From an uncultured Methanosarcinales archaeon (GTDB lineage: Archaea > Nanobdellota > Nanobdellia > Woesearchaeales > GW2011-AR9): DNA of 44,202 nucleotides. A program made the translations under genes and the position numbers. The number at the start of each line of letters is the position of its first letter. Position 1 is the stretch's first letter. The notes under the pieces were generated by a model that ran no database searches, was not told the DNA's origin, and saw only the letters and a list, made by a program, of their open reading frames with translations. The stretch covers positions 1 to 44,202 of the forward strand of contig CAZKNU010000001.1 in NCBI GenBank assembly GCA_964554235.1, in the 5' to 3' direction. Of this stretch, positions 1-33,818 are shown one piece after another.

Positions 1-511
1 CAAATTTAGCAAAATCATAGCCAATATTTACCCTAAAATGCTTCTTTATTGTATAATGTCCGCCTTTATTTTTAGAATTGGGATTTATTACGATGCTTTC
101 CTCTGCAGTACCCACCAGTTCGTCTTTCTCAAAAGTGACCTGATATTTCTCCGGATTATACTTGCCCATTAATTCGTTGAAAGCAGTGTTAACCATACTT
201 CCAACGTCCTGAAAACAAGCTTTTTCTCCCTCACGCAGGTAATAAAATGGACACTCATGACCTTTGGAAACTCCGCCCTGCTTAGTTAAGAGAGTTACCG
301 TTTCTTTTCCTACCCATAACGCTAATTGGTCATTCTGTAACAGTTCTTTCTCGCCGGCAAGATAATAATTATTTAAATAATCGGCTTGCCATTCCCCTTT
401 AATTTGTACTCCTGTATCTTTTTCGTAGACAGATAATAAAAAGAAAGCTAAAGCAGCTATAATCGCAAAAATAATCCAATGAAATAATGCTCCTTTTTTT
501 GAATTAATCAT
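1..511 (-). CDS. prepilin-like (class III signal peptide) protein, C-terminal part cut off by window edge
   Basis: Not in the ORF track because it runs off the window. I read every minus-strand codon from ATG (509-511) down to position 2 and found no stop. N-terminus is MINSKKGALFHWIIFAIIAALAFFLLSVY: a basic n-region, KKG, then about 20 hydrophobic residues. Confidence 0.6.
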   Translation of the reverse strand, partial: MINSKKGALFHWIIFAIIAALAFFLLSVYEKDTGVQIKGEWQADYLNNYYLAGEKELLQNDQLALWVGKETVTLLTKQGGVSKGHECPFYYLREGEKACFQDVGSMVNTAFNELMGKYNPEKYQVTFEKDELVGTAEESIVINPNSKNKGGHYTIKKHFRVNIGYDFAKF

Positions 512-535
512 CTTAATTTTATTTACCTATTTCAT

Positions 536-1033
536 TTATTTTTCTCGGCTAAATACAACCGTTATTGATGGAATCTGTTTATTTTCTAAATTAGGTAATT
601 CTAAACTACATTTCTTACCTGACCCAAACACCACATTGCTAAAAGAAAATAAACGGTCTTTTCCCTGGCGGAATTCTGCTGTATTATAAATAGCTACATT
701 TCCTTCCGCTTTCTTTTCTCTAAAATAAGTTCCGGTTTTTTCTTCAAATAGATCTCCCCGGTTAGTATTTACCGCTAGCAAGATTAAATCTTTCATCTGG
801 ATTTTCTGCTCGCCAACCAATGCCGGATAATTTAAGTAGTAAAGCAGCTGTTGTTCGGAATCAAATTGGTCTAAGGTCTCTAAAGAAAGTTCTGTTTTTG
901 CTTCTACTTCGGAATTAAGTACTAATTGAATAAAAAATAAGGCAAAAAATAAGATTAAAACCATAAAGATTAAATCAAAAAAGTCCGGCATGATTCCTTT
1001 TTTTCCGGTGATCAATATTGAATTAATTTTCAT
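536..1033 (-). CDS. prepilin-like N-terminus protein (hypothetical)
   Basis: 165-aa ORF. N-terminus MKINSILITGKKG|IMPDFFDLIFMVLILFFALFFIQLVL. Same strand as, and closely spaced with, its neighbours. Confidence 0.55.
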   Translation of the reverse strand: MKINSILITGKKGIMPDFFDLIFMVLILFFALFFIQLVLNSEVEAKTELSLETLDQFDSEQQLLYYLNYPALVGEQKIQMKDLILLAVNTNRGDLFEEKTGTYFREKKAEGNVAIYNTAEFRQGKDRLFSFSNVVFGSGKKCSLELPNLENKQIPSITVVFSREK

Positions 1034-1099
1034 TTTTGTTGGTTATCTATTCCTTCGGTTCTTTGTTTTTTTGTTAATTGTTTTATTGTTAATACTTTT

Positions 1100-1588
1100 T
1101 TATATTTTAGTCTGTACATAAATAATCATTCGGGTAGGCATGACTTCTCCCCCCGAACGGATAAATACCTCTTTATATAAAGTGAAATCCACCTTATTAA
1201 AAAAATTATTAGTCATCAATATTTTTCCTGCCCCTTCTTTAGTGGGACCAAACCCTTCTAATTCTATTCCAAAATTATAATCTTTATACCCTCGCTCTTT
1301 TTCAGTACGATAACAGCCATCTAATCTCTCTTGAGTAAATTTATTTAAATCAATAGTTCCGGGAAAAATTCTGCCCGTCAATGAATCTTGATAAGTAAAA
1401 CATTCCGGGGTATTTAAGAAACGCAAAGCCAGCAATTCTGCCTTGAGCTCGGGAGGAACTTCTACTAATTTATTTTGGTAACTGGACATAATTAAAGCAA
1501 AAGCTAATACGGCTATAGTAATTACCATTCCCGCAATCATCCAAAAAATGGATTTGGTAACCACATCAAAGATTCCTTGTTTATCCAT
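1100..1588 (-). CDS. prepilin-like / N-terminally anchored hypothetical protein
   Basis: The track starts it at 1600, which is a GTG overlapping the upstream gene. An in-frame ATG at 1586-1588 lies 2 nt after the upstream stop (1591-1593). It gives MDKQG|IFDVVTKSIFWMIAGMVITIAVLAFALI. The motif is weaker (Q-G rather than K-G). Confidence 0.5.
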   Translation of the reverse strand: MDKQGIFDVVTKSIFWMIAGMVITIAVLAFALIMSSYQNKLVEVPPELKAELLALRFLNTPECFTYQDSLTGRIFPGTIDLNKFTQERLDGCYRTEKERGYKDYNFGIELEGFGPTKEGAGKILMTNNFFNKVDFTLYKEVFIRSGGEVMPTRMIIYVQTKI

Positions 1589-1590
1589 GT

Positions 1591-1986
1591 TTAACTGCAC
1601 CTCTGCAAAAGGATTTGCTGGTTTTCTTTACGCAAGCATAATCGGCTTTGTTCTTCCAAGGTTCCAAAAGCAGTATACCCTTTGGGTAAAATTATCTGCC
1701 GAATGACCGTCTTTAATTCCCCTTCACCTTTAATAAATACCCGAATATAATTGGAATTAAGGATTAAGGCATATTTAGAAACATTTCCCGGATATTCTAT
1801 TAAAACTTCTCCGGGAGTGCCTACTAGCACGTCCGCCATCATTTTAATATCTTCGGCCAGATTAATTTTATTTGCGGTTTCCGAGCCAGCATATTTTTGA
1901 GCAAGTTCAAAAGTCATATAACTTACAAAAAAAACTATTAGAATCTCAAAAACCAGCATCAGCACCATCACTGCTTTCTTATTCAT
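1591..1986 (-). CDS. prepilin-like protein (K-K-A class)
   Basis: MNKKA|VMVLMLVFEILIVFFVSYM. Its start overlaps the stop of the upstream gene in an ATGA (1983-1986). Confidence 0.55.
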   Translation of the reverse strand: MNKKAVMVLMLVFEILIVFFVSYMTFELAQKYAGSETANKINLAEDIKMMADVLVGTPGEVLIEYPGNVSKYALILNSNYIRVFIKGEGELKTVIRQIILPKGYTAFGTLEEQSRLCLRKENQQILLQRCS

Positions 1987-2651
1987 TTTATCTGCTGCCC
2001 TTCCTGCGGCCCGATGATTCGTACGGTGTTATCAAGTTTAACTAAATATAATAGGGTTCTTCTGGGCATTTCATAATAGCTTACCACGTACCAGCTGGAT
2101 TTATCGGCCAAATGCCTTTCAATCATAAACCCGCCGGTGCATTTATAAGAATGCACGGCTTCCGCTTTTCCCAGGCTGCAAGATTCTATTTCTAAATTAT
2201 AATTTATATTGGAACAGAGAACAATTTTAGGAATAACCGTTATCGTATCATAACCCGGTTTGCTGAGAGAAGTATCAAATTCTGATTTTCTAAATAAGCA
2301 CAAACAATTTTTGTCGTCGTTACATTGGCTTGGCTTTTGCAAATGGATAGTAAAATCAGTATAAGGCACGCGGGCATCGACTTCCACTAAAACTTCTTTT
2401 TTTCCTTTTTCAAAATAAACCACGGCAGTAGCAGTATCCATAATCAAAAGGGTGCTTTCTCTTGCCCCAATTTCTCCGACCTGGGAAAATTTTTCTAATT
2501 CCTGGACAAAATCAACATAATTGTCCTTGGCTTGAGTACTCGTCCTAAACAGCCGTGCTCCTAAATAACAGGCGGGGACAAAAATAATCAAAGCGAGAAC
2601 AAGTGAAACCAGGAATTTCAGCATAATTGCTTTTTTATTTTTATTGAACAT
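1983..2651 (-). CDS. prepilin-like protein (K-K-A class), Cys-containing globular domain
   Basis: MFNKNKKA|IMLKFLVSLVLALIIFVPA. 222 aa with several Cys in the C-terminal two thirds. Confidence 0.55.
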   Translation of the reverse strand: MFNKNKKAIMLKFLVSLVLALIIFVPACYLGARLFRTSTQAKDNYVDFVQELEKFSQVGEIGARESTLLIMDTATAVVYFEKGKKEVLVEVDARVPYTDFTIHLQKPSQCNDDKNCLCLFRKSEFDTSLSKPGYDTITVIPKIVLCSNINYNLEIESCSLGKAEAVHSYKCTGGFMIERHLADKSSWYVVSYYEMPRRTLLYLVKLDNTVRIIGPQEGQQIK

Positions 2652-2774
2652 TTTAAAATGAAAATGATTTAAACTTTATTTTTACAGTTATTTTTTATAA
2701 TTATTTTATATTTTGTTTTTTATATTTTTATACCAGCTTTACCATAAATTTATATTTTTGATAAATTTATAATT

Positions 2775-3650
2775 TTATTTCCTGATCCATTCGCTATCTA
2801 TGCATCCGTAAATTTTATTGCCAACAATGAGCTCCTTGCCTTCATTACCTTTCTTACAACCAAACCAATAGCCGCTTTTACAAATCAAAGAACCATAATT
2901 TGGTTTAGACCTCCACTGCCAGGAGAAAAGATTTTTAGGATCCTGTTCATTATCAGCAGAAAAGTAAGTGTGTTCCTGAATTGCCCCTTCCAGAGAAGCG
3001 GATTTAGTTGCAGAAATAATCGTTTCTTCATCAACTGCATATTGACCACAATCATTTTTATCATACGCATAAGCTAGCGGATAAAGTACCGGAATTCTGG
3101 CATCTTTTTCACTGGCCATAACCCAGCAGCCGGTGGTTATCGGCTGGTAAGAAAATTCATCGTCATCGCAATCGGTTCCTTGTGTAGGACAGTCTAAGCC
3201 CATCCAATGCGGACAAGCAAAATTAATTATTCCGCTGCTTTTTTCACCGCTATCATCATTACCAAAAATTTCCAGAGATTCATAATGCATAAAGGCTTCT
3301 TCACCAACCTTCTCCGCTAATTTTTCATCAATAGCGCTGGTTTTAAGAACCCCACAGCCCGTATCTGAGTTATATTTTTCCCGATCGGCCTGTTTCTGCT
3401 GGCTGGTAAATGTAGCCGGACAGCCATTAGTGTCTATTTCCCCATAAGTACAAGGACAGTCATCAGAAAGGCCTACTACTCCGTCAAAATCAGGATCACC
3501 CACAGTATAATTTCGCTGTGCCCTCAGGATATCACCAAAACTAAATAAATGAGGAAAAAAAATAGCAATGACTGCTAATAACAAAACTAAAGCCAAGATT
3601 ACTGAAATAAGCACTTCCATAACTTGGCTAAGGCCTTTTTTATTTATCAT
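2775..3650 (-). CDS. prepilin-like protein with Cys-rich domain and a thrombospondin-type-3-like Asp-rich loop
   Basis: MINKKG|LSQVMEVLISVILALVLLLAVIAIFF. Also carries DPDFDGVVGLSDDCPC (a DxDxDG-type Ca-binding-like motif) and many Cys. Confidence 0.65.
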   Translation of the reverse strand: MINKKGLSQVMEVLISVILALVLLLAVIAIFFPHLFSFGDILRAQRNYTVGDPDFDGVVGLSDDCPCTYGEIDTNGCPATFTSQQKQADREKYNSDTGCGVLKTSAIDEKLAEKVGEEAFMHYESLEIFGNDDSGEKSSGIINFACPHWMGLDCPTQGTDCDDDEFSYQPITTGCWVMASEKDARIPVLYPLAYAYDKNDCGQYAVDEETIISATKSASLEGAIQEHTYFSADNEQDPKNLFSWQWRSKPNYGSLICKSGYWFGCKKGNEGKELIVGNKIYGCIDSEWIRK

Positions 3651-3809
3651 ATACCTATCACGCCTTTTTTTTAACTATTAACTTATTAACTCTCGGTTTT
3701 TAGTTTTATTGATTTTTATTTTGATTCAAATCAATCCTAATTATCTTAATATTTGTTTATAATTATAATCTTTTCTTAATTTTAATTAAATATTTTACCA
3801 AATTCTATC

Positions 3810-4802
3810 CTATTCCCCGGCAATATCTCCCGAACCGCACATTTCCTGCCCTACTTCTAAAAAGCCAACATAAATCGAACTGACATCTCTTTCTGCATAC
3901 ATATCTCCCATTAAATTCATATATCCCGCTGTACCTAAATAGATGCCTGCCGCACCAGTAGCAACAATTGGCACTAAACCGAGGGCTGCTTTTCCAACAA
4001 TCGCTTTTCCAGGAAGTTCTCCCGGAACGATCTTTTGCTTGCTTTCTGCATAACTTTTGTATTGCATTGCTCCTCCAACAATGGCTGGTAGCAAATAAAT
4101 CCCCAGCGGAAAAACTAAAACCGCGCCTCCACCCATCTGCAGTACTCCTTTCCAAAAAGTATCTCTTTCCTTATTTTTAGGCATCATGGAAACAGTGTAA
4201 GCGGCGCGGGGAAAGATTTCCGGAGCAGTTAGCACTACTCTTCCCGGACCACCATATCCTTGAATGTAATCCAAGTAAGTCATATTTACTTTAGAATATT
4301 TTTTCAGGGCCATAAAATCAAACAGCTCTTTGGAAGAAATCGGTCCACCTTCAATTTCTTCCTGATCAACCAATAAAGTATAACAATTAAAACATTGGTT
4401 TTCATAACCATCAAAACCTAGTACAGAAGGTAAAACATCTAAATCCCCCGAACTTAAAATCTCTTCATATCTTCCTTCATTAAACATCCACCAGCATCTG
4501 GCCGTAGCTTCAGCTATTTGCCGCAGGATTTGCTGCCTATTCCCGGTGATTTTTTTATCAATGGTCTTACAGAGAGCCGGAACCATTTTTAATTCCGCTT
4601 CAACTAAGCTGCTTTTAAGGTGGAAGGCACTTTTGGCTCTTAAAGCAATGCTGTTCTGGCAGAGCACTTCTGCTTCTACATCGCTGGATTTAGACATAAA
4701 TCTTAACAATACTCCGGAAATTAATACAAAAGCAATTAAAGTAATCATCATTCCGATAATAAAGCTGGCCGTTAAAGCTTTTTTTCCGGTTAAAGTGATC
4801 AT
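3810..4802 (-). CDS. membrane protein with prepilin-like N-terminus plus two Gly-rich C-terminal hydrophobic segments
   Basis: MITLTGKKA|LTASFIIGMMITLIAFVLISGVLL at the N-terminus. Later hydrophobic stretches are GGGAVLVFPLGIYLLPAIVGGAM and AALGLVPIVATGAAGIYLGTAGY. The longest ORF at this position; the 116-aa, 70-aa and 90-aa ORFs that overlap it are rejected. Confidence 0.6.
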   Translation of the reverse strand: MITLTGKKALTASFIIGMMITLIAFVLISGVLLRFMSKSSDVEAEVLCQNSIALRAKSAFHLKSSLVEAELKMVPALCKTIDKKITGNRQQILRQIAEATARCWWMFNEGRYEEILSSGDLDVLPSVLGFDGYENQCFNCYTLLVDQEEIEGGPISSKELFDFMALKKYSKVNMTYLDYIQGYGGPGRVVLTAPEIFPRAAYTVSMMPKNKERDTFWKGVLQMGGGAVLVFPLGIYLLPAIVGGAMQYKSYAESKQKIVPGELPGKAIVGKAALGLVPIVATGAAGIYLGTAGYMNLMGDMYAERDVSSIYVGFLEVGQEMCGSGDIAGE

Positions 4803-4874
4803 TTTTAGGTTATTTTAGATTATTTATTTCTAATTTGTTTATTTCATTTTTAACTTATTTTATTTTACTAATAT

Positions 4875-5651
4875 TTAACTGCATAATTTCAATTTGCCTT
4901 GTTTAATTAAATTGGGAATGGAATTAACTTCTCCGTCGGTAAACCATTCATTGGCAATGCCACTTTCACCATAATTAAAAACCCAGTTAGTAGGGAAAAA
5001 ACAAATATGCTCTCCATCAGGGGTAAACAACCAGCCCCCGTCTTCAAAGTTATCTCCTAAACCGATATCTAAAAAAGCAATACTGTTTCCTTTCCTTTTA
5101 CCGCTTTTTGACTGGTAGTAAATGGTAAGCGCATCAACCGGCTGAAAATAAGGATATACTAATTGCTTTTCCTCTTCGATAAAGAAATTAAAAAAATGTT
5201 CTGCTACCCTTCCTCTTCCTGCAATTACGCAAGGCTTCATTCCTGGAAACTCCGTTCTTAATTCCGTTAGCATTTGTTTTCCGCCCGCTCCCCCGCCGAC
5301 AGTAAGGACGGTTTTATTTCCTTCCGAGTTAATCAGGATTGAAGTGCCTTCTTCTTTGCCCAACTCAGAAAATCCGCCGTAATTGGCAAAACAGTTCTCT
5401 TTGCCTTTTCCTAACATGGTAAAGATGGTTTTGCTTAAACTTAAAATCTGGGCTTGGTGGATTTCAGGAATGGAAATTTCTGCACCTAATTCTTCCGCCC
5501 CCATCCCCATTTCGGGCAAAAAGCGTTTAAGGTCTAAAATGGTGGCTTTTAATTCTTCCCAAGCCCCGCTCTCCCCAAAAAAAATGACTAAAACTACCAG
5601 CAAGAAAACAATCGGAAGTACATAAAAAATTATTTTTGATGCTACACCCAT
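4875..5651 (-). CDS. N-terminally membrane-anchored hypothetical protein
   Basis: MGVASKIIFYVLPIVFLLVVLVIFFGESG. It has a hydrophobic N-terminus but no K-K-G/A motif. 258 aa. Confidence 0.55.
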   Translation of the reverse strand: MGVASKIIFYVLPIVFLLVVLVIFFGESGAWEELKATILDLKRFLPEMGMGAEELGAEISIPEIHQAQILSLSKTIFTMLGKGKENCFANYGGFSELGKEEGTSILINSEGNKTVLTVGGGAGGKQMLTELRTEFPGMKPCVIAGRGRVAEHFFNFFIEEEKQLVYPYFQPVDALTIYYQSKSGKRKGNSIAFLDIGLGDNFEDGGWLFTPDGEHICFFPTNWVFNYGESGIANEWFTDGEVNSIPNLIKQGKLKLCS

Positions 5652-5673
5652 GTTCTCCCATTTTCCAAATTTT

Positions 5674-5847
5674 CTAAAATAAGTTTAAAAATCTGTCCAG
5701 CAGCAGGTTGCCTTGTTTGCTTAGCAAAAGCCAGAGGGCACCAGCAGCAATCAACAGCACCAGTAAACCAACCAACGTAATAATCAAAGTTAAGGCCTCG
5801 TCCCCTTTTTTGCCTAATGATAAACCCTTTAGTAATTCTATTTTCAT
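5674..5847 (-). CDS. 57-aa mini prepilin-like protein (below ORF-track size cutoff)
   Basis: Hand-translated codon by codon: MKIELLKGLSLGKKG|DEALTLIITLVGLLVLLIAAGALWLLLSKQGNLLLDRFLNLF, stop TAG at 5674-5676. Its ATG overlaps the upstream mini-gene stop in an ATGA (5844-5847). It competes with the 73-aa track ORF 5642-5863 in another frame. Confidence 0.4.
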   Translation of the reverse strand: MKIELLKGLSLGKKGDEALTLIITLVGLLVLLIAAGALWLLLSKQGNLLLDRFLNLF

Positions 5848-5972
5848 AATCCAAATAACCCAAATTTCTTTTTTAATCCCATCATCACGGCAATAAAAAT
5901 TAAGATGCCTAATAAGATAATTACAATTAATTCTACCACACTTAGGTCAGCAGCTTTTTTATTTAATTTCAT
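5844..5972 (-). CDS. 42-aa mini prepilin-like protein (below ORF-track size cutoff)
   Basis: Hand-translated codon by codon: MKLNKKA|ADLSVVELIVIILLGILIFIAVMMGLKKKFGLFGL, stop TGA at 5844-5846. It has the same K-K-A plus hydrophobic helix organisation as its neighbours. Confidence 0.4.
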   Translation of the reverse strand: MKLNKKAADLSVVELIVIILLGILIFIAVMMGLKKKFGLFGL

Positions 5973-6018
5973 GGCTATAATTAAGTGTATATTAATTTAT
6001 TTTAGTGTGAATTGATTT

Positions 6019-6288
6019 TTAAGTTAAAGCCTCGTTCCGAACCCCAAAACAACATTCCGGTTTAGCTTTATCTAGACATTTGAATGCAGATGACACTGTT
6101 CCTTGATAGGCGCTTCGGCAGGTTTTTTCTCCAACACAAGTGCCGCCTTTGCTTTCACAATCCAATAAGCCACCTTCAACGACAGTAGTTTTTTCTGTAA
6201 ATAACACCATCAGAACTACCATCACTACTAAAGCGATTACCGCGCCGATTATGATCCACCACATGTTAGCATCAGCTTTTTTAAACAT
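6019..6288 (-). CDS. small Cys-rich prepilin-like protein (K-K-A class)
   Basis: The track start at 6294 is a TTG. An in-frame ATG at 6286-6288 lies 2 nt after the upstream stop and gives MFKKA|DANMWWIIIGAVIALVVMVVLMVLF. The C-terminal about 50 aa carry 6 Cys. Confidence 0.6.
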   Translation of the reverse strand: MFKKADANMWWIIIGAVIALVVMVVLMVLFTEKTTVVEGGLLDCESKGGTCVGEKTCRSAYQGTVSSAFKCLDKAKPECCFGVRNEALT

Positions 6289-6290
6289 AC

Positions 6291-6644
6291 TCAACTCCAG
6301 ATACAGCCGGATTCAGATTGACAAACATCGCTATTATCACTAAACTCTTTGCAGCGGTCAATTTCTCTTTTAAAATCAGCTTTGGCTAAATCTTGTTCTT
6401 CAGAAAGCTCTGCTTGTTCAAATTCAGTTAAGAACTTATCCTCAAAAGATCCGCTCGGATGACATTGGCCATAATAGATTTTTAATCCAGCTAATTCTTG
6501 CGATCCTTCTTTACTAACGCCTTCTTTAAAAATTTGAACTCTGCCCGTAAAAACAACAATTAAAACTACCAGCACAATTAAAGCTAAAGCTGCAACTATT
6601 ATTACATTTAAAGACATCGCTTGCCCTTTTTTTGAAAATACCAT
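6291..6644 (-). CDS. prepilin-like protein (K-G-Q class)
   Basis: MVFSKKG|QAMSLNVIIVAALALIVLVVLIVVF. This is a textbook archaeal class III signal layout with Gln at +1. Confidence 0.7.
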   Translation of the reverse strand: MVFSKKGQAMSLNVIIVAALALIVLVVLIVVFTGRVQIFKEGVSKEGSQELAGLKIYYGQCHPSGSFEDKFLTEFEQAELSEEQDLAKADFKREIDRCKEFSDNSDVCQSESGCIWS

Positions 6645-6833
6645 TTAATCCACCTCTTTTTCAATAAATACTATTTTATTTATCTTTAATTATTATCTTT
6701 AGTATCTTTAGTTAAAAAAAGAAAATCCCTATATAAATGTTGCGTGTGAAGTCGTTAAAAACACCATTAAATTGGTCGATTTAACATCTGATTTAGGCTA
6801 TTTGGTTAATTTAGTCAATTTAATCCTAAAACA

Positions 6834-7418
6834 TTAATCACATAAATATAATACATTTTCCACCAGTCCCGGATCAGTATTGATTGGAAATAAACCCGAA
6901 CTGTAACGATCTTTCCCCGCCGGACAGCCCCCATCAACGACCACAGGAGACATGATCTCTAACGGTTTTTCTTCCTGAAAAACTAATAACTGAGAATGTA
7001 ATTCATAATGTTTATTCCAGCTTCCTAAAGTTTCATTTAACAAATAAAAACTCATTTCATGCAGAAATTCACAGCTATGCAGCCTTTGTTTACTTATTGG
7101 GCCAATACAATTATATTGGCTGGCGGTATCTAAATGCCGGGCGCAATCGTCAATGATGTTCTTTCCCAGTTCCGGGAGACCGATGGAAGTGCAGTCTGCT
7201 TCCTTGCTAATCGTTGTTTTCATCAGGGCACTCATGGCACTATAAGCCAGCCCTTTTCCGGTAAAAGTTTTTTTTTGTGGTTCAGATTTTAAAGCTAAGG
7301 AAGCCATTAACAGCATCCCTAAAGTGATTAGAATTACAATGATTACTAACCCGATGATTTCCATTTGGCCTTTTCGGCAGTTGGTCCTAGTCCGGTTTTT
7401 ATTTTTATTTTGGTTCAT
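6834..7418 (-). CDS. prepilin-like protein (K-G-Q class)
   Basis: ...NCRKG|QMEIIGLVIIVILITLGMLLMASL. Its start overlaps the upstream stop in an ATGA (7415-7418). Confidence 0.7.
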   Translation of the reverse strand: MNQNKNKNRTRTNCRKGQMEIIGLVIIVILITLGMLLMASLALKSEPQKKTFTGKGLAYSAMSALMKTTISKEADCTSIGLPELGKNIIDDCARHLDTASQYNCIGPISKQRLHSCEFLHEMSFYLLNETLGSWNKHYELHSQLLVFQEEKPLEIMSPVVVDGGCPAGKDRYSSGLFPINTDPGLVENVLYLCD

Positions 7419-7906
7419 GAATAGGCTACTACTTCCACATAACCCAAACGATATTGGGGTTTATTTTCATCAGTTAAATCATTTCTTAAGGAAACTACAA
7501 AGAAGGTTGGTTCCTTCCTAGTTATTTTTAAAGGCGGTTTATCATACAGCAGCCAAGAAGTATCGCCGGGATAAACTTCTTTTACCGAGATTTTTGCATA
7601 AGAAAAAAGATCAAAATAATAATTGTCAGAATATTTCTTAAACGTTTTATTAACTAAATCTAATTTTAGGACATCAAAACAATTATCTTCCGGCTCAGCC
7701 AACCCTTTACTGCAAATTAATTCCGGCAGGAACAAAGTTTTCAAAGTGGTTTCGATTGCTTTTGCTCCCAGCAGTTCTTCTTCTTTTTCAAAAAGTGCGG
7801 CTTGCTGATATTTATAATAAAAAATTATCCCAAAGAGGATTAAAACAAAGAAAATAAATAAGACGGCAATAGTTTCAGATATTTTTATTTGTCCTTTTCG
7901 ATTCAT
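7415..7906 (-). CDS. prepilin-like protein (K-G-Q class)
   Basis: MNRKG|QIKISETIAVLFIFFVLILFGIIFYY. Confidence 0.7.
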   Translation of the reverse strand: MNRKGQIKISETIAVLFIFFVLILFGIIFYYKYQQAALFEKEEELLGAKAIETTLKTLFLPELICSKGLAEPEDNCFDVLKLDLVNKTFKKYSDNYYFDLFSYAKISVKEVYPGDTSWLLYDKPPLKITRKEPTFFVVSLRNDLTDENKPQYRLGYVEVVAYS

Positions 7907-7994
7907 TTTTCGCTTCCTGTTTTTAAGTTCCGAGTCTAACCTTTTTTTACAATTAATCCTTTTTGATTTAATTTAATAAACTCTTTCATCTAAT

Positions 7995-9137
7995 CTAATA
8001 TAATTGAGCACAATTTAACCGCAAATCTTCGTTAATTTTTTCTAATTCATTGGCGACGGAAATTATTTCTGCACAGGAAAGGGGACTTTCTCCAAAACTT
8101 AGTTCTAAACGACAGCCGGCTGCACCGGCATTAAGAGCTCTTAAAGTATCTTTAACATTACTTTTATATTCTAAAAGAAGAGCAATGCATTCAGAACTGG
8201 CGGGTCTGTTTTTATAAAAATCGACCATTTTTTTTAATTTCCCGCCTATTTTTCCTTGGGTAATTTCTTCTCCGCCATACACTTCCGTTAAAATTTCTAA
8301 ACGGTTAAACGCTTTTTTTATATTACAATTATATAATTCGGCATTCTCTGTAAAAATAGCTGCATATTTAGCGGCATTTCTTTCTTCATCCAGGGAAATT
8401 ATTTCAATTGGTTCTGGGTTTAGTTTTTTCCAAGTATTTCCTTCTTTCTGATAAAAATTAGCCCAGTTTGTGCCGCGGATAAAAGTAACGGCGCTGACAT
8501 CCTGATCTAGAAATAAGCTTAAACCGGCAGGAATCCCTTTTTCAGGTATTTGCGAGCCATCAACATCGACCACTCTGACTTTAATCTTCCCTTCGGCTTG
8601 AAGATCATCTAAATTAGCAACATATTCGCGGTTAAAGCCTTCTTTTTCAAGTCCGGCAGTCGCATCTAAAAATTCAGTGACAAATTCTTCATCACTTCCA
8701 ACTAAATAATATTTTACATTAGGGGCAGTTACAAATAAGAAGTCAATAACTTTAAAAGGAAGATGATAAGGTAAACTCCAGAAGAGGATAAATGGGCTTT
8801 GGATTTCTTTTGGTGCAAACAAAGGATCAATGGGATTTTGTGCTCTGGCCGGTTTTCCTTTAAGGCCAAATTCACCGACCCCTTCAATACAATCAAAATA
8901 TAACGTGTAATCAGACAAACCGCCGGCTTCAACTGAATTCTTAGTTTTTTCAGATACACTTGCACCCGATAAAATTGAATCCATAATTCTCACTACTTCT
9001 CCGGATAATTGCTCTTCAGAAACTTTAGCCTGCCTAACTACAATACCAATAAAGAAAAGTAAAATTATGGCTCCCACTAGCGCAACATAGATCCAATTAA
9101 AAGTTAATTCTATTTGTCCTTTCTTTTTCATTTTCAT
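7995..9137 (-). CDS. large (380 aa) prepilin-like protein (K-G-Q class)
   Basis: MKMKKKG|QIELTFNWIYVALVGAIILLFFIGIVV, followed by a globular region of about 340 aa. Confidence 0.7.
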   Translation of the reverse strand: MKMKKKGQIELTFNWIYVALVGAIILLFFIGIVVRQAKVSEEQLSGEVVRIMDSILSGASVSEKTKNSVEAGGLSDYTLYFDCIEGVGEFGLKGKPARAQNPIDPLFAPKEIQSPFILFWSLPYHLPFKVIDFLFVTAPNVKYYLVGSDEEFVTEFLDATAGLEKEGFNREYVANLDDLQAEGKIKVRVVDVDGSQIPEKGIPAGLSLFLDQDVSAVTFIRGTNWANFYQKEGNTWKKLNPEPIEIISLDEERNAAKYAAIFTENAELYNCNIKKAFNRLEILTEVYGGEEITQGKIGGKLKKMVDFYKNRPASSECIALLLEYKSNVKDTLRALNAGAAGCRLELSFGESPLSCAEIISVANELEKINEDLRLNCAQLY

Positions 9138-9193
9138 TTGGTTTTTTATTCCTTCAGTTTTCTATTTAATTTCCAGCCTTGAACCCATAACAC

Positions 9194-9739
9194 TCAGCTA
9201 GAAACTAATTTAGGAGATATTTCTGTTTTATCTCCTTTCCCTTCTAAAATAATTGTAAATTGGCCGTCTTTAATAGGCAGGCATAAAAAATTTTTCCCAT
9301 CTGGAGAATTAATACTAATTTTATGCACTTTAATTTTGGGAGCAACTGGTTTTAAAAATACATTTTCATTAACAGTATCATATCCAGAAGACATTTCCCA
9401 AATACTGTATGCCCCTAAATCAGAATCTTTCAGTGCCAAATCGGGCGGTGCATCTAAATCCACAAAACAGATTTGAGAATATTTTGCCGGAACAGTAAAA
9501 TGTTCTACTCTTACCGATCCATACTCAGTATAAATTCGCTTGACTGAACTTTCCAATGAGGTTTTAAATTGAACAAACGCAACATTTTCTCCGCTCTGTA
9601 AAAAATCAGTGATAGCTTTATACCCAAAAATCATAACTAAAGCAAAAGTAAGCGCAGCTACAATAAAGACAAATACCTCGCCAACCCCTAACCCTTTCTT
9701 GTTTAACCCTTTCTTGTTAAAAAAATTTTTAAAAAACAT
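9194..9739 (-). CDS. prepilin-like protein with duplicated NKKGL motif
   Basis: MFFKNFFNKKGLNKKGLGVGEVFVFIVAALTFALVMIFGY. Confidence 0.65.
   Translation of the reverse strand: MFFKNFFNKKGLNKKGLGVGEVFVFIVAALTFALVMIFGYKAITDFLQSGENVAFVQFKTSLESSVKRIYTEYGSVRVEHFTVPAKYSQICFVDLDAPPDLALKDSDLGAYSIWEMSSGYDTVNENVFLKPVAPKIKVHKISINSPDGKNFLCLPIKDGQFTIILEGKGDKTEISPKLVSS
9689..9718 (-). repeat. perfect 15-nt tandem duplication (taaccctttcttgtt x2) encoding NKKGL-NKKGL
   Basis: Read directly: 9689-9703 and 9704-9718 are identical. Confidence 0.9.
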
Positions 9740-9746: not shown

Positions 9747-12700
9747 TCACACTTTCCTTTTCTTACTTAATTTTCTTAATTCACTAAAAATATCTTTAGC
9801 TTCTTCTTTGCTGACTACTTCTTGGATATCTTTATCTTTAGTTTTTTTAGCAATATTTTCCAGTTTAGTAAAAATATTTTTTTCTTCTATCCTCAATCCC
9901 GGTTTAATTTCGCTTTTATGTTCGGAATATTTTTGAGCAAGATCTCCTAAACGAGTTAAATGAGGAGCTTTCTTTTTAAGCAAGACTTCAACATGAGGAA
10001 TATTCTTAGACTGCTGGCTAAAGGTTCCAAAAACAGAAGATCTCTCTTGCAAGCGGGCTTTTTCTTTTCTTGCTTTTCTTAGCTCCAGCAATTTTCTTTC
10101 CCAAGCTGAAAGTACTCCCCGTGCTCCTGCTTCTGCTGATTTAATGGATGAAGTAAATCTTGTTCCGGTTTGTTTTTGACTAACTCCTCGACTTTTAGCT
10201 GAGTATTGGTAATAATAAATCAAGTAAGCGGTTCCACCTAGAACAAGTAATAATCCTAAAATTAAGAAAATCCAAGCGAAAAGGCTTGTTTCTTTTTCTA
10301 AAGGAAGCAGTTCTGGTACTGGTTCTGGTTTAGGAGCATCAGCTACGCAGGGATTTAGTTGCTTAATATATTCTTCATAATTGCTTAAGCCATCGCGATC
10401 ATAATCTTCTAAGGAATCATCTATGCCATTTTCATCGGAATCGGCTTTTTGATAATCTAATCCACAGCCAGATTCATCAAAAGTTTTCTCCCAAACATCG
10501 GGCAACCCGTCTTTATCAGAATCGATTTTAGTTAAGGATTCAGGCACTTCTCCGCTGGCACAGCCAAGAGTGTCAACAATTTTGCCTGTGCCGGTATTTG
10601 CACACTGATCACAACGATCGGAAATGCCATCACCATCATTGTCTTTAAATATAATTATCTGTGATTTGGTATAATTGTTTCCCGCACTATCAACTGCTGA
10701 ATAACATAACCAGCTTGTTTTTGTAAAAGCTATTTTTTGCCCGTTATAAGCAAGAGTAGCATTGCAAAAGGTCGCCGAAGCCGCTATCCCATATTTAAGT
10801 TTACAGGCAGTAGTGTCTTTACAATATAATTCCACCAAAGCAGAAGTACAGCTGGTATCGTTGGTTGCTATTAAAATTTCTGGAGCGCCGGTGTTCTTGC
10901 AAATGCTTTCATTTCTGGAAGTAATTATAAACCCATCACTAGTTGCAAATTTACCTTCATTGCCGGCAGCATCTATTGCTTTTATCCTTAGGTTATAATA
11001 ATTGTTTTCTTTTAAGCCGGCCGTAGAGATATTGATAGGTAATCCTGGGCCAACACTGGCAGAATAAACTTTCTCGCCGGAAAGGGGGCTTAGCTGATCA
11101 TTTTTAGTGGCGTTGGTTAAATATTGAGAATAACTATTAGATAAATTTGTTGGAATAGTCAATTTAAGATTAGCTGTAGTGAAGTTTTTTATTGAACCTT
11201 GATTATAAACTTCATAATAATAACCACTCAGATTCTCTTCATTGGTATAAACTAATACATTTACTTCTTTTCCCCCGCAGGTAGAAGTACCATCATTGAT
11301 GCTGGCGATAGTTGGGGGGGTAAAATCAATCCTAAAAGTAGCTTTAGCCTCTACGGTCTGCTCACCCATAGTGCATTTAACCGGAATAACATATTCTTTT
11401 TTCTCTTCTAAATTTCCTAAATAGACGGTATGAAAATTAGTGTTAACTCCTTTAGAGAAAAGTTCAAAAGTATTGCCTAATTTATATTTACAAATTGCTT
11501 TCTTAAGCGTTTCTACTGCTAAAGTAACATTTTTCTCCCTGATAAAACCATTAGGGCTAATGCTTTTGATATTGCCTACTGCAGAATAATCAACTTTAAA
11601 ATTAATTTCTGCAAGTTTAGAAAGATTTCCGGCCCCGTTCTTACACATTACCTTAAAAGAATATTCTTTTTCTGCTCCTAAGAAATTAATGGCATAATCA
11701 GTTTGATGTTTAGTATTAAGCTGTCGGTCGTCTATGCCGGGGAAAGAATATTCCATCGTTTCATACTCAATGCTGCCTTTCTTTTCAGAATCGTCGCTGT
11801 ACTTACATTGGGTTTTATCATCGGTTTCTACAAATAAAGTAGTTCTAATTTCTTCAAAAATATTGTCTGGTTCAGCATAAGCTTCTTTTATTTGAGGAGC
11901 GGTAGGATCAAATTCTAAATTAAATTTTTGTTCGGGACTAATTTCTCCTTCTGAATTTTCACATTTAACATACACTAATTTGGTCCCTCCTTTCTCAGGG
12001 TATTCTGAGAATACGCTGGAAGGGAATTCTGCAAAAATATATTTTTTCTCTTCATTTGGTTCTTTTATTTTATATGGCGGAACTTGTTTATAATCAAAAC
12101 CGAGCCCAAAATCAAATTTACATTTTACCGTCGGAATTTTAGTAAAGAACTGCCAAGTAAAATTATTATTGTTGCTGATTCCCCATACTTCGCCTAAATA
12201 GTAATACAAAAAGGGTTTTTCTAAAGTGATTCCATATCCTTCGATGAGAACTTTTCCGCAACTGGGCCTATAGACGGGATTTTTAGCTTTATCTGTAGAA
12301 TAATAACAAACTTTAGTGCTGTTTTTTAAGATTACTTCTTTGGAAAATTCTTGGTAATTAGGATTTTTAATAAGCTCGCAGCCTTCACCTAAACAATAAA
12401 AAGTTTTGTCACAGGCAAAACCTACTGCAGTGCATTCAAAACTAAGAGCCACTTTTTCAATAAAAAATTCTTCCCAATTAAATTTAAGGGGTTTAATTTC
12501 CCGTGCCCCTTCTTTTAAAATAACTTGGGTTTGCGGTGCCGTAAAATCAACGGTAAAGTGGAAGAAATCCTCATAAATTTGATCGCCAAATAATTCCTTG
12601 CACACCACTTTATATTCACCGGCATATTCTTTTTCTACCAATCCAGAAACGGGAGCAGTTGTATGCACTTTCCCTTCTTCATTACTAACAAAATCAGCTA

Positions 12701-16142: not shown

Positions 16143-16724
16143 TTATTTGGGCTTAACCAAGCCTCTTAACTTAGAAATAATTAATTCATTTTCCTTCTTT
16201 TTGGCTATTTTTTTAGCTCTTTCTTGCTCTTTTTCATTAAATCTCTTAATTTCTTTAATCCTAATTTCTTTGATCTTATCATTAACAATTTTATCGTTAA
16301 TTCTATTGTTAACTTTATTTTTTTTACTATTTTTAACCAAAGCTTCTAAATGTTGAAAATGGTTTATTTTCGGTGGTCTTTGCTTTGGCCGGTGATACTT
16401 AACGATTCGGCTTAACTTAGTAAATGGATCTCGAGTTTTCTGAACTGGTTTATCCGAAGTGGGGCCAAATGTGGCTAACAAATCTTCTCGTTCTTTGATT
16501 TGTTTTTTATGCTCCCAGTTTTGCTTTAGTTCTTTAATCCTTTTTCCAACTAAAGAATTCTTAAAATTAAAATTTAACCAAGAAAGGGTTTTTTTTGTTG
16601 GTAAACCAGTAAGAGGAATTTTTTTAAATAATCGTTTTTCTCCGGTTCTCCACTTATAGAAGATATATAACAGCACAGCTAAAAATAATAAAAATAAGAT
16701 GGCTAGTAAAGGTTCCGGTTCCAT
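16143..16724 (-). CDS. single-pass membrane protein with long Lys-rich cytoplasmic domain
   Basis: MEPEPLLAILFLLFLAVLLYIFYKWRTGEKR, then about 165 highly basic residues. The plus-strand ORFs overlapping it are low-complexity mirror images. Confidence 0.55.
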   Translation of the reverse strand: MEPEPLLAILFLLFLAVLLYIFYKWRTGEKRLFKKIPLTGLPTKKTLSWLNFNFKNSLVGKRIKELKQNWEHKKQIKEREDLLATFGPTSDKPVQKTRDPFTKLSRIVKYHRPKQRPPKINHFQHLEALVKNSKKNKVNNRINDKIVNDKIKEIRIKEIKRFNEKEQERAKKIAKKKENELIISKLRGLVKPK

Positions 16725-33686: not shown

Positions 33687-33818
33687 TCAAAATTAATAAC
33701 CTAAATACCTATATAAATATTACTATTAACTAATTGAAGTTAATTTTAAACATAGATTTAAATAAATTTAAAATCAATCAAAAAGAGTTTAAAAGCTTCT
33801 TTCCTCAGATACCCGTCA

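What the first reader, a model, noticed from the sequence alone, without database searches (positions are those of the whole stretch)
1..9739. Exceptionally dense tandem array of class III signal-peptide genes (42 to 380 aa)
Sixteen consecutive genes were read directly. Nearly all start with 3-20 residues ending in K-K-G, R-K-G or K-K-A, followed at once by a hydrophobic helix of about 20 residues. Examples are SKKG|QAMSLNVIIVAALALIVLVVLIVVF, RKG|QIKISETIAVLFIFFVLILF, KKG|QIELTFNWIYVALVGAIILLFF and NKKA|VMVLMLVFEILIVFF.

That is the established layout recognised by archaeal prepilin peptidases (PibD/FlaK/EppA). Beyond the helix the proteins are unrelated in size and sequence. This would fit one major subunit plus many minor or tip subunits. 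Typical archaeal pilus loci, as far as I know, carry far fewer pilin genes.
Basis: partly seen in the sequence, partly recalled or inferred. Interest (0 to 1): 0.75.

Follow-up and report, generated by a model that had tools for sequence, protein, structure and literature searches.

The report
Conserved prepilin-like gene cluster in Woesearchaeota
A tiny symbiotic-type archaeon carries a strictly ordered operon of about 16 unannotated surface-protein genes, nearly all with the N-terminal tag that archaea use for pilus subunits; the operon recurs across its whole lineage and probably supplies the "missing" pilus subunits of these organisms.

Summary
Window 1-9739 (minus strand) holds 16 back-to-back genes of 42-380 aa. 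Fourteen have a short leader ending K/R-K/R-G/A directly before a ~20-residue hydrophobic helix (P about 3e-10 by chance).

The cluster recurs in the same gene order in about 60 species-level Woesearchaeota/Nanoarchaeota genomes. The site is G/A in 789 of 816 orthologs. Leaders are unconserved and conservation starts at +1. Gln+1 is invariant in three array families, near-invariant in a fourth and kept in an upstream fifth. The helix is usually the best-conserved segment. These features match experimentally mapped archaeal pilin sites (KG|QI, KA|IS, RA|LS).

An 886-aa upstream protein is a 17th member. A giant adhesin-like protein sits immediately upstream. The 117-aa gene has its own conserved BRE/TATA promoter, which makes it the major-subunit candidate.

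Against membership: no curated pilin profile hits, two confident AlphaFold models have no PDB fold match, and no ATPase, platform or peptidase gene lies within 10 kb in 80 genomes.

Verdict: most likely a lineage-wide type-IV-filament-like surface apparatus assembled by machinery encoded elsewhere (confidence 0.6). It is a new variant of a known kind. Interest 0.62.

The parts
16756..19416 (-). 886-aa protein.
   Evidence: Found in 46 loci. [KRSH][KRS][GA]|Q[ILVM]T[ILVM]F is kept in the 13 orthologs whose N-terminus lies on the fetched contig. No Pfam or NCBIfam hit.
16143..16724 (-). 193-aa protein with an N-terminal TM segment and a Lys-rich tail. In other genomes this slot holds a 290-376-aa Sec-signal, Cys-rich protein.
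9747..16013 (-). Giant 2088-aa adhesin-like surface protein. Its stop lies 7 nt before the first array gene. It has an N-terminal KKRG plus hydrophobic stretch, Ig-like domains, a C-terminal TM segment and a Lys-rich tail.
   Evidence: Pfam: CarboxypepD_reg x2, fn3, SdrD_B, SpaA, Big_13. Present in 76 of 80 loci, with KKRG conserved in 53 of 61.
9194..9739 (-). 181-aa gene, NKKG|LGVGEVFVFIVAAL. First of the four-gene module A.
   Evidence: 80 orthologs; -1 residue is G in 59 and A in 16; helix conservation 0.75 against 0.60 for the rest.
7995..9137 (-). 380-aa gene, KKKG|QIELTFNWIYVAL. Module A.
   Evidence: Q+1 in 79 of 79. Leaders 4-60 aa and unconserved. AlphaFold2 pLDDT 87, helix 15-61 followed by a beta domain and a helical bundle. 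No PDB fold match. Family of 1,674 clusters at 50% identity.
7415..7906 (-). 163-aa gene, NRKG|QIKISETIAVLF. Module A. Overlaps the next gene by 4 nt.
   Evidence: Q+1 in 75 of 75, E+6 in 75 of 75.
6834..7418 (-). 194-aa gene, CRKG|QMEIIGLVIIVIL. Last gene of module A.
   Evidence: Q+1, E+3 and G+6 each in 75 of 75. In L030, L056 and L062 the array stops after this gene.
6730..6744 (-). Conserved archaeal BRE/TATA promoter (cgcaaca|tttatata) for the 117-aa gene. The SD gaggtg is at 6656-6651.
   Evidence: The strict motif occurs 45 times in about 1.5 Mb of related loci, and 41 of these lie upstream of this gene.
6291..6644 (-). 117-aa gene, SKKG|QAMSLNVIIVAALALIVLVVL. Best candidate for the major subunit; first gene of module B.
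   Evidence: -1 is G in 64 of 65, Q+1 in 60 of 65, helix conservation 0.85. Extra paralogs in many loci. AlphaFold2 pLDDT 83, helix 12-55 plus a small 4-Cys helical head. No PDB match.
6019..6294 (-). 91-aa gene (89 aa if read from the ATG), FKKA|DANMWWIIIGAVIAL, with a small 6-Cys head. Paralog of the 117-aa gene.
   Evidence: hhalign 99.6% to the 117-aa family. -1 is A in 35 and G in 30.
5844..5972 (-). 42-aa gene, NKKA|ADLSVVELIVIILLG. Helix-only, Flp/Epd-like; mature length about 35 aa.
   Evidence: 50 orthologs; -1 is G in 25 and A in 24.
5674..5847 (-). 57-aa gene, GKKG|DEALTLIITLVGLL. Helix plus a short amphipathic tail; mature length about 42 aa.
   Evidence: 59 orthologs; -1 is G in 51 and A in 7; E+3 in 47. 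Shares the N-terminal module with the 91-, 194-, 42- and 380-aa families.
4875..5651 (-). 258-aa gene with an N-terminal anchor but no K/R-G/A site. It is an exception within the array.
   Evidence: site conservation 0.22.
3810..4802 (-). 330-aa gene, TGKKA|LTASFIIGMMITL, with two extra Gly-rich hydrophobic segments near the C-terminus.
   Evidence: -1 is G in 42, A in 11 and S in 2. Hydrophobic segments at 220 and 267. Median of 2 TM segments in orthologs.
2775..3650 (-). 291-aa gene in the variable slot, INKKG|LSQVMEVLISV, with 12 Cys and a TSP3-like Asp-rich motif.
   Evidence: The slot holds proteins of 93-725 aa in other genomes.
1983..2651 (-). 222-aa gene, NKNKKA|IMLKFLVSLVLAL.
   Evidence: -1 is G in 30 and A in 18.
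1591..1986 (-). 131-aa gene, MNKKA|VMVLMLVFEILIVFF.
   Evidence: -1 is G in 24 and A in 22; E+9 in 38 of 46.
1100..1588 (-). 162-aa gene, MDKQG|IFDVVTKSIFWMIAG. The site is not conserved in orthologs, so this is probably an uncleaved anchor.
   Evidence: -1 is G in 13, A in 10, D in 9 and S in 8. Site conservation 0.39.
536..1033 (-). 165-aa gene, TGKKG|IMPDFFDLIFMVL.
   Evidence: -1 is G in 29 and A in 12; D+7 in 40 of 42.
1..511 (-). Last array gene, cut by the window edge. 175 aa in full, INSKKG|ALFHWIIFAIIAAL.
   Evidence: -1 is G in 36 and A in 5. Orthologs are mostly 381-396 aa.

Best explanation
What it is. The region is one half of a two-module gene cluster of roughly 20 genes. The cluster is conserved across the Woesearchaeota-type Nanoarchaeota (DPANN archaea). 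It most likely encodes the structural parts of a type-IV-filament-like surface apparatus.

How it probably works.
- Fourteen of the 16 array proteins, plus an 886-aa upstream protein, are made as prepilin-like precursors (inferred).
- A class III signal peptidase encoded elsewhere removes the short basic leader after K/R-K/R-G/A (inferred).
- The conserved hydrophobic helix is then free to pack with other such helices (inferred).
- An ATPase and platform encoded elsewhere would drive assembly (inferred).

Module A is the giant adhesin-like protein followed by the 181-, 380-, 163- and 194-aa proteins. By analogy with the four core minor pilins plus PilY1 of bacterial type IV pili, or with GspH-K of type II secretion, these four would form a priming or tip complex that presents the adhesin.

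Module B starts at its own conserved BRE/TATA promoter. It encodes the likely bulk subunits: the 117- and 91-aa small-headed paralogs, and the 42- and 57-aa helix-only proteins that resemble Flp and Epd pilins. Further accessory subunits follow, together with two uncleaved membrane-anchored helpers of 258 and 162 aa.

The likely role is attachment to a host cell or a surface (inferred).

Shown here: the motif, its conservation, the fixed gene order, the promoter, the helix-first conservation pattern and the long N-terminal helices in the models.

Inferred only: cleavage, filament formation, the division of labour between subunits and the function.
For: 1. The site is K/R-K/R-G/A in 14 of 16 genes in the window and in 789 of 816 orthologs. 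Control proteins show it in 2 of 13 cases.
2. In the 380-aa family the leaders run from 4 to about 60 aa and are unconserved, and conservation begins exactly at +1.
3. Gln+1 is invariant in the 163-, 194- and 380-aa families and is 60/65 in the 117-aa family. It is also kept in the 886-aa family, whose orthologs were found by their QIT[IV]F start. Several families have an invariant acidic residue at +3 to +7.
4. The sites equal experimentally mapped ones: EpdB-E KG|QV/QL/QI, EpdA RA|QI, UpsA/B KA|IS and KG|IS, AapA/B RA|LS.
5. The helix (+1 to +28) is more conserved than the rest in 12 of 16 families. The two families without the site show the opposite pattern.
6. AlphaFold2 models at pLDDT 87 and 83 give N-terminal helices of 47 and 44 residues followed by a head domain.
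7. A pooled N-terminal profile searched against all PDB sequences returns pilins as its top three hits (E = 0.0016 to 0.0037). The K-K-G aligns on NARG|LS and NAKA|LS of archaeal pilins with solved filament structures. About 10 of the top 22 hits are pilins or archaellins.
8. Gene order is invariant in about 60 species-level genomes sharing only 36-56% identity. 4-nt overlaps link gene pairs.
9. A dedicated consensus promoter precedes the 117-aa gene: 41 of the 45 strict motif occurrences lie there.
10. Cysteine counts are even in at least 90% of orthologs for most families, which indicates extracellular heads.
11. G-versus-A usage at -1 co-varies among families within a genome (z = 3.9). A divergent genome has KKA at about 13 sites.
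12. There is precedent for pilin operons unlinked from the ATPase and platform genes, in M. maripaludis. DPANN genomes have been reported with annotated Tad-like machinery but no annotated pilins.
Against: - No Pfam or NCBIfam class III, pilin or archaellin model hits any member. This holds even for 70 orthologous N-termini scanned at E up to 10.
- Neither confident model matches a solved pilin or anything else in the PDB. The 117-aa head is helical, not the usual beta-sheet or Ig-like head.
- No secretion-type ATPase, polytopic platform protein or A24-type peptidase motif lies within 10 kb in any of 80 loci, or in the 44-kb window. I could not show that the genomes encode them at all.
- The PDB profile hits are marginal, and a non-pilin with KKKGG plus a TM segment (FliL) also scores.
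- The acidic residue is not at the canonical +5.
- The 330-aa member has extra hydrophobic segments that do not fit an extruded subunit.
- The relaxed motif also fits the giant protein, which otherwise looks Sec-dependent.
- The G/A covariation test does not correct for shared ancestry.
Confidence: 0.6

Rival explanations
1. A surface complex that uses class III signals but is not a filament, comparable to the Sulfolobus bindosome. The proteins are processed by the prepilin peptidase but stay anchored at the membrane by their N-terminal helices. They form a fixed multi-subunit envelope or host-contact complex around the giant adhesins, not a polymer.
For: - Many distinct, mostly single-copy families in a fixed order suggest defined stoichiometry rather than one polymerising subunit.
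- The head folds are unlike known pilins.
- The 330-aa member has extra hydrophobic segments, and two members are plain anchors.
- No assembly ATPase is linked.
- Class III signals on non-pilin surface proteins are established in Sulfolobus.
Against: - Helix-only proteins of 35-42 mature residues have little purpose other than helix packing.
- The helix is the best-conserved segment.
- Multi-copy small-headed paralogs lie behind a dedicated consensus promoter, which looks like a bulk subunit.
- The bindosome itself needs a TFF-type ATPase and platform.
Confidence: 0.22
2. Uncleaved signal-anchor (type II) membrane proteins. The K-K-G/A motif is only a positive-inside topogenic flank plus a helix cap. 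The cluster would encode an unrelated membrane machine, for instance for envelope biogenesis or secretion of the giant proteins.
For: - No peptidase gene has been found.
- No curated class III profile hits.
- Two array members have anchors without the motif.
- A FliL-type anchor with KKKGG also matches the pooled profile.
Against: - A topogenic flank does not need G/A at one fixed position in 96.7% of 816 orthologs from 14 unrelated families. Control anchors show it in 2 of 13 cases.
- It does not explain invariant Gln+1, the conservation boundary exactly at +1 with leaders of 4-60 aa, or the G/A covariation.
Confidence: 0.12
3. Ordinary Sec signal peptides, cleaved after the hydrophobic region, releasing soluble secreted proteins.
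For: A basic n-region followed by a hydrophobic stretch is also the Sec layout. The giant 2088-aa neighbour probably is Sec-dependent.
Against: - The hydrophobic stretches are 18-25 residues long and are the most conserved part of the proteins. Cleaved Sec h-regions are short and poorly conserved.
- No conserved small-x-small c-region follows.
- The 42- and 57-aa proteins would have almost nothing left after such a cleavage.
Confidence: 0.03

Closest known systems
Epd pili / archaeal TFF 'System 1' (clade 1) of Methanococcus maripaludis and Thermococcales; EppA-processed DUF361 pilins
   Same: - Short leaders ending in Gly or Ala, Gln at +1 and a nearby acidic residue.
- Very small major pilins without a globular head.
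- Several larger minor pilins and large adhesin-like proteins in the locus.
- Pilin operon separate from the ATPase and platform locus.
   Different: - No DUF361 (PF04021) or other profile match.
- The acidic residue sits at +3, +6 or +7, not +5.
- No EppA gene inside the operon.
- About 15 class III genes in one fixed-order array, against 3-5 or more.
- Gln+1 is found in only 5 families; the rest have L, I, M, A, V or D at +1, like PibD substrates.
- The head domains have no known fold.
Bacterial type IVa pilus minor-pilin/PilY1 operon (fimU-pilVWXY1E) and the type II secretion pseudopilins GspH-K
   Same: A block of four prepilin-type genes lies next to a very large adhesin gene. That block (181-380-163-194) behaves as a separable module. 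The bulk subunit is transcribed separately.
   Different: - No sequence or fold similarity was shown.
- The organism is an archaeon with a single membrane and no secretin.
- The adhesin has its own C-terminal TM anchor.
- The resemblance is an analogy drawn from established knowledge, not a tested homology.
DPANN 'dark matter' islands of predicted divergent pilins (Makarova, Wolf and Koonin 2019, PMC6393860, Fig. 2A)
   Same: DPANN genomes hold runs of unannotated signal-peptide proteins that were predicted to be fast-evolving pilins.
   Different: - Those islands were recognised because FlaI- and TadC-type genes sit in them. This cluster has none within 10 kb, so ATPase-anchored surveys would miss it.
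- Here each gene is a well-conserved orthologous family (36-56% identity) in a fixed order, not a fast-evolving assortment.
Sulfolobus bindosome (class III signal peptides on sugar-binding proteins)
   Same: Class III signals sit on proteins whose extracellular domains are diverse and not pilin-like.
   Different: - No solute-binding domains or ABC transporters occur here.
- Helix-only members and paralogous small-headed members point to polymerisation.

Membership tests
Archaeal class III (prepilin-type) signal peptide proteins | Short N-terminal leader with K/R (or D/E) at -2 and G/A/S at -1 | tested here: met
   14 of 16 window genes. 789 of 816 orthologs have G/A at -1, and K/R at -2 and -3 is the commonest residue in every family. 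Also met by the 886-aa family. Not met by the 258- and 162-aa families.
Archaeal class III (prepilin-type) signal peptide proteins | Hydrophobic H-domain of about 20 residues directly after the processing site, retained in the mature protein | tested here: met
   The hydrophobic window starts 0-8 residues after the site. The helix is the most conserved segment in 12 of 16 families. AlphaFold2 helices of 44-47 residues.
Archaeal class III (prepilin-type) signal peptide proteins | Cleavage by a class III signal peptidase (PibD, FlaK or EppA) encoded in the genome | not testable with these tools
   No A24-type motif or polytopic protein in the window or within 10 kb in 80 loci. Whole genomes could not be scanned. 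Indirect support only: DPANN genomes in general carry FlaIJK- or Tad-type genes.
Archaeal class III (prepilin-type) signal peptide proteins | Recognition by curated N-terminal profiles (Pfam Class_IIIsignal/DUF361 PF04021, Pilin_N PF07790, NCBIfam archaeal pilin models) | tested here: not met
   No hit at E up to 1 for any window protein. No hit at E up to 10 for 70 orthologous N-termini.
Archaeal class III (prepilin-type) signal peptide proteins | N-terminal sequence similarity to pilins with solved structures | tested here: inconclusive
   With the pooled profile against the PDB, the top 3 hits are pilins (E = 0.0016 to 0.0037) with cleavage sites in register, and about 10 of the top 22 are pilins or archaellins. 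The scores are marginal and non-pilin TM proteins also appear.
EppA-type (Epd, System 1) pilins | Gln at +1 | tested here: met
   75/75, 75/75, 79/79 and 60/65 in the 163-, 194-, 380- and 117-aa families, and QIT[IV]F in the 886-aa family. The other 10 families do not have Gln+1.
EppA-type (Epd, System 1) pilins | Glu at +5 | tested here: not met
   Invariant acidic residues sit at +3 (194-aa), +6 (163-aa) and +7 (165-aa), and commonly at +3 (57-aa) and +9 (131-aa), never consistently at +5.
EppA-type (Epd, System 1) pilins | Dedicated peptidase (EppA) and FleN/MinD-type ATPase in the pilin operon | tested here: not met
   No such genes in the cluster in any of 80 loci.
Type IV filament (TFF) systems | Secretion-superfamily ATPase and polytopic platform protein | tested here: not met
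   Absent in cis: none in the window or within 10 kb in 80 loci. Presence elsewhere in the genomes could not be tested with these tools.
Type IV filament (TFF) systems | Pilin fold: protruding N-terminal helix of about 50 residues carrying a globular head | tested here: inconclusive
   The long N-terminal helices are present in both models. The heads have no Foldseek match in the PDB at E up to 1e-3, and one head is all-helical.
Type IV filament (TFF) systems | Subunits polymerise into a helical filament | not testable with these tools
   No multimer modelling or experimental data were available.
Sec-dependent secreted proteins (rival) | Short, poorly conserved h-region followed by a small-x-small c-region cleavage site | tested here: not met
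   The hydrophobic stretches are 18-25 residues and are the best-conserved part of the proteins.

The most novel reading that the evidence does not exclude
The cluster, with its giant adhesins, encodes a DPANN-specific host-contact organelle. This would be a composite machine derived from type IV filaments, built from 15 or more different prepilin-like subunits in fixed stoichiometry, with new head folds. In complexity it would be closer to a type II secretion or injection-type apparatus than to a simple pilus. It could be the molecular basis of the attachment or bridge structures seen by cryo-tomography in DPANN-host pairs, whose components are unknown.
Probability: 0.2. Interest if true: 0.88.

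Novelty: new variant of a known kind. Interest (0 to 1): 0.62.

Why it matters
DPANN archaea are ultra-small and mostly live attached to a host. How they attach, and how they obtain material from the host, is largely unknown.

Surveys find Tad/FlaI-type pilus machinery in DPANN genomes but report no annotated pilins (PMC9563170). The current census methods anchor on ATPase and platform genes, so they miss stand-alone pilin loci (bioRxiv 10.64898/2026.04.22.720090).

This cluster gives the Woesearchaeota-type lineage a concrete parts list:
- about 17 orthologous families, none in Pfam or NCBIfam;
- a diagnostic N-terminal motif;
- a candidate major subunit with its own promoter;
- a candidate four-protein tip module next to a giant adhesin.

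The 380-aa family alone spans 1,674 clusters at 50% identity, so the system is a major, unannotated feature of a very abundant environmental group.

The question becomes directly testable through metaproteomic N-termini, metatranscriptomic abundance, heterologous cleavage assays, multimer modelling and immuno-cryo-ET in enrichments.

It also supplies new profile models that would improve annotation of thousands of 'hypothetical' DPANN proteins.

Tried and rejected
- Pfam and NCBIfam scans of all array proteins gave nothing. The only hit was a weak TSP3-like motif in the 291-aa protein.
- A Pfam scan of 70 orthologous N-termini at E up to 10 returned only chance TM look-alikes.
- Foldseek of both AlphaFold2 models against the PDB found no match at E up to 1e-3.
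- A sequence profile of the 117-aa family against the PDB found nothing relevant.
- BLASTP all-against-all for paralogy among the head domains found none. hhalign later revealed only the 117/91/291 relationship and a shared N-terminal module.
- My first greedy gene caller and 'last K/R' heuristic mis-assigned sites, for example by picking K inside QIKISE. I replaced them with alignment-based counts (then 38).
- The first control set was contaminated by the giant and 886-aa families, which carry the motif themselves, so I recounted it (then 58).
- A motif scan for Walker A plus GExR ATPases, GxGDxK peptidases and polytopic proteins in 80 loci found none that were relevant.
- Five literature searches and several paper look-ups for Woesearchaeota pilus machinery, or for an earlier description of this cluster, gave only general DPANN statements.
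- tRNA and Rfam scans of the window found nothing.
- Names for divergent 380-aa homologs: only 1 of 10 carried a taxon label, Nanoarchaeota.
- I considered and rejected an ORF artefact or chance explanation, because gene order, strand and family conservation hold across about 60 genomes.
- I rejected a mobile element or viral origin, because the neighbours are housekeeping genes (RPA, RNase P p30, TBP, MCM, Orc1, PolD) and the synteny is stable.
- I left the third homologous-protein search unused, because no remaining query would have changed the conclusion.

Full report
**1. The observation**

The window is archaeal. It encodes TBP, MCM, Orc1/Cdc6, both PolD subunits, TFE, aIF2-beta and RNase P p30, and its G+C content is about 35%.

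On the minus strand, positions 1-9739 hold 16 contiguous genes of 42-380 aa. The leftmost gene is cut by the window edge. Sister contigs show it is 175 aa (MINSKKG|ALFHW...) and that the array ends there. An HTH-CBS regulator on the other strand follows, and then RPA.

Fourteen of the 16 have [KR][GA] immediately before a strongly hydrophobic stretch. There are two exceptions. The 258-aa gene (4875-5651) is a plain anchor. The 162-aa gene (1100-1588) reads MDKQG in the window, but its orthologs do not keep the site.

Fourteen of 16 by chance has P = 2.6e-10 at a 15% background. Unrelated N-terminally anchored proteins from the flanks of related genomes show the feature in 2 of 13 cases, and one of those two looks like another member of the class.

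**2. The array is a conserved, fixed-order cluster**

The 380-aa protein has 189 word-indexed homologs. All come from Woesearchaeota or Nanoarchaeota MAGs and all are annotated 'hypothetical'. An exhaustive profile search finds 1,674 clusters at 50% identity, 1,149 of them with E of 1e-10 or better.

I fetched 80 loci from species-representative genomes and ran iterative HMM searches on them. Every array family recurs, always on the same strand.

The order is essentially invariant: 181-380-163-194-117-(117/91)-42-57-258-330-(variable slot)-222-131-162-165-175. This holds in about 60 genomes that share only 36-56% identity in the 380-aa protein. A more divergent Nanoarchaeota genome keeps the same layout.

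In three genomes with full flanks the array stops after the 194-aa gene. The first four genes therefore behave as a separable module.

- A giant adhesin-like protein of about 2,100 aa is present in 76 loci. It has CarboxypepD_reg x2, fn3, SdrD_B, SpaA and Big_13 domains and a C-terminal TM segment.
- An 886-aa protein at window 16756-19416 begins ...RKKTA|QITIFMIMG. Its orthologs keep [GA]|QIT[IV]F, which makes it a 17th member of the class.

**3. Evidence that the N-termini are class III (prepilin-type) signals**

(a) Over alignments of 27-80 orthologs per family, -1 is G or A in 789 of 816 sequences. K/R is the commonest residue at -2 and -3 in every family, and N, S or G is usual at -4.

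(b) In the 380-aa family the leaders range from 4 to about 60 residues and are unconserved. Conservation starts exactly at +1, with Q8, T12, F13 and W15 invariant. In most families mean column conservation is 0.13-0.37 in the leader, 0.56-0.92 at the site, and highest in the helix.

(c) Gln+1 is invariant in the 163-, 194- and 380-aa families and is 60/65 in the 117-aa family. Invariant acidic residues sit at +3 (194-aa), +6 (163-aa) and +7 (165-aa).

(d) These sites are the same as those mapped experimentally in archaeal pilins: EpdB-E KG|QV/QL/QI, EpdA RA|QI, UpsA/B KA|IS and KG|IS, AapA/B RA|LS. EppA substrates are defined by leaders of 5-13 residues ending in Gly, by Gln+1 and by Glu+5.

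(e) The helix is more conserved than the head in 12 of 16 families. This is expected when the helix forms a filament core. It is not expected of a cleaved Sec signal or a generic anchor. The two families that lack the site show the reverse pattern.

(f) AlphaFold2 gives confident models. The 380-aa protein (pLDDT 87, pTM 0.81) has a helix at 15-61, then beta domains and a Cys-stabilised helical bundle. The 117-aa protein (pLDDT 83) has a helix at 12-55 and a small four-Cys helical head.

(g) I searched a pooled profile of 70 N-termini against all 177,635 distinct PDB sequences. The top three hits are pilins (E = 0.0016 to 0.0037). K-K-G falls exactly on NARG|LS and NAKA|LS of archaeal pilins whose filaments have been solved. 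About 10 of the top 22 hits are pilins or archaellins. The scores are marginal, and a FliL anchor also appears.

(h) G-versus-A usage at -1 co-varies among the unrelated families within a genome (z = 3.9; 2 of 5000 shuffles reach it). A divergent genome has KKA at about 13 sites. This fits a single enzyme reading all the sites, but the test does not correct for shared ancestry.

(i) Cysteine counts are even in at least 90% of orthologs for most families, so the heads are probably extracellular and disulfide-bonded.

**4. Evidence against, or missing**

- No curated model recognises any member. Pfam and NCBIfam give nothing for the window proteins. Seventy orthologous N-termini scanned at E up to 10 hit no Class_IIIsignal, Pilin_N or N-methyl family.
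- Neither structure model matches anything in the PDB.
- No secretion ATPase, platform protein or A24-type peptidase is encoded in the 44-kb window or within 10 kb of the cluster in 80 genomes.
- I could not scan whole genomes, so the existence of the machinery rests on indirect literature. DPANN genomes generally carry FlaIJK- or Tad-type genes. In M. maripaludis the pilin operon is unlinked from the ATPase and platform locus.
- The 330-aa member has additional hydrophobic, Gly-rich segments.
- The giant protein keeps KKRG in 53 of 61 orthologs although it otherwise looks Sec-dependent. This is unexplained.

**5. Internal organisation and proposed mechanism**

Gene pairs 163/194, 117/91, 42/57 and 222/131 overlap by 4 nt. 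The giant gene ends 7 nt before the 181-aa gene.

A gap with a median of 160 nt (189 nt in the window) precedes the 117-aa gene. It contains a textbook BRE/TATA, cgcaaca|tttatata, at 6744-6730, followed by a strong GAGGTG ribosome-binding site. The strict motif occurs 45 times in about 1.5 Mb of related loci, and 41 of these lie upstream of this gene. The cluster therefore has two transcription units.

- **Module A** is the 886-aa protein, a small protein, the giant adhesin and the four prepilin-like proteins of 181, 380, 163 and 194 aa.
- **Module B** starts with the 117-aa protein and its paralog of 91 aa (hhalign 99.6%). Both have extra copies in many genomes. Two helix-only proteins follow (mature length about 35 and 42 aa), which resemble Flp and Epd major pilins. 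Larger members come next.

By analogy with established bacterial systems, I propose the following. The analogies are the four core minor pilins plus PilY1 in type IVa pili and GspH-K in type II secretion. This is a resemblance, not tested homology.
- Module A forms a priming or tip complex that displays the adhesin.
- Module B supplies the bulk and accessory subunits.
- The 258- and 162-aa proteins act as uncleaved membrane helpers.
- Processing and assembly are done by a peptidase, ATPase and platform encoded elsewhere.

Only the anatomy is shown here. Cleavage, polymerisation and the roles of the subunits are inferred.

**6. Comparison with what is known**

The closest system is the Epd / System 1 pilus of methanococci and Thermococcales.
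- *Shared features:* the site grammar, tiny headless major pilins, several minor pilins, large adhesins and unlinked machinery.
- *Differences:* no DUF361 match, the acidic residue is not at +5, no EppA in the operon, a mixture of Gln+1 and hydrophobic +1 sites, about 15-17 class III genes in a single fixed array, and unknown head folds.

Makarova et al. (2019) noted DPANN 'dark matter' islands of predicted pilins. Those were recognised through adjacent FlaI- and TadC-type genes. ATPase-anchored censuses would not detect this locus. I found no paper that describes it.

I therefore rate it a new variant of a known kind.

**7. Verdict**

- The class III reading is well supported by comparative evidence, but it is not proven biochemically. 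Formal membership by profile or by fold is not met.
- Best explanation: a lineage-wide, type-IV-filament-like surface apparatus, confidence 0.6.
- Main rival: a non-filament class III surface complex, 0.22.
- Other rivals: uncleaved anchors, 0.12; Sec signals, 0.03.
- Interest: 0.62.

Noticed in passing
window 6730-6744 (-), with SD at 6651-6656: A textbook archaeal BRE/TATA (cgcaaca|tttatata) lies 86 nt upstream of the 117-aa gene's ATG and is conserved in nearly all related loci. 41 of the 45 strict motif occurrences in about 1.5 Mb lie at this one position.
   Followed up: yes
window 9747-16013 (-) and orthologs in L008-L087: The giant ~2100-aa adhesin-like protein keeps K-K-R-G before a ~20-residue hydrophobic stretch in 53 of 61 orthologs. 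Otherwise it looks like a Sec substrate with a C-terminal TM anchor and a Lys-rich tail. Whether the same peptidase reads it is unclear.
   Followed up: partly
window 19511-24850 (-): A second giant protein (1779 aa, Sec-type signal, many Cys) has no Pfam domain at all. Only fragments of homologs appear, in 7 related loci, so it is far less conserved than the 2088-aa giant.
   Followed up: partly
window 42233-42251 (+) and 42310-42519 (+): The same consensus BRE/TATA (CCGCAACTTTTATATA) precedes an unannotated 69-aa ORF with an N-terminal TM helix, between the aIF2-beta and TFE genes.
   Followed up: partly
window 33687-34864: A 1.2-kb intergenic gap next to orc1/cdc6 has 25-28% G+C and only weak direct and inverted repeats. 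It may be a replication origin, but no clear ORB elements were found.
   Followed up: partly
L011, L015, L017-L020, L023-L026 and others: Many reference contigs that carry this cluster are titled 'uncultured Methanosarcinales archaeon' (TPA_asm), and one 117-aa homolog is filed under 'Candidatus Staskawiczbacteria'. These are probably taxonomic mislabels or mis-binning of Nanoarchaeota contigs.
   Followed up: no
window 2775-3650 (-): The 291-aa 'variable slot' protein has a thrombospondin-type-3/OmpA-like Asp-rich calcium-binding motif (residues 51-94) and 12 Cys. The same slot holds proteins of 93-725 aa in other genomes.
   Followed up: partly
window 1-511 (-) versus L005 17456-18646, L006 18496-19647: The last array gene is 175 aa in this organism but 381-396 aa in most relatives, so the window's copy lacks a C-terminal domain.
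   Followed up: no
L030, L056, L062: In these genomes the array ends after the fourth gene (the 194-aa family) and unrelated genes follow. Module B must lie elsewhere or be absent.
   Followed up: no
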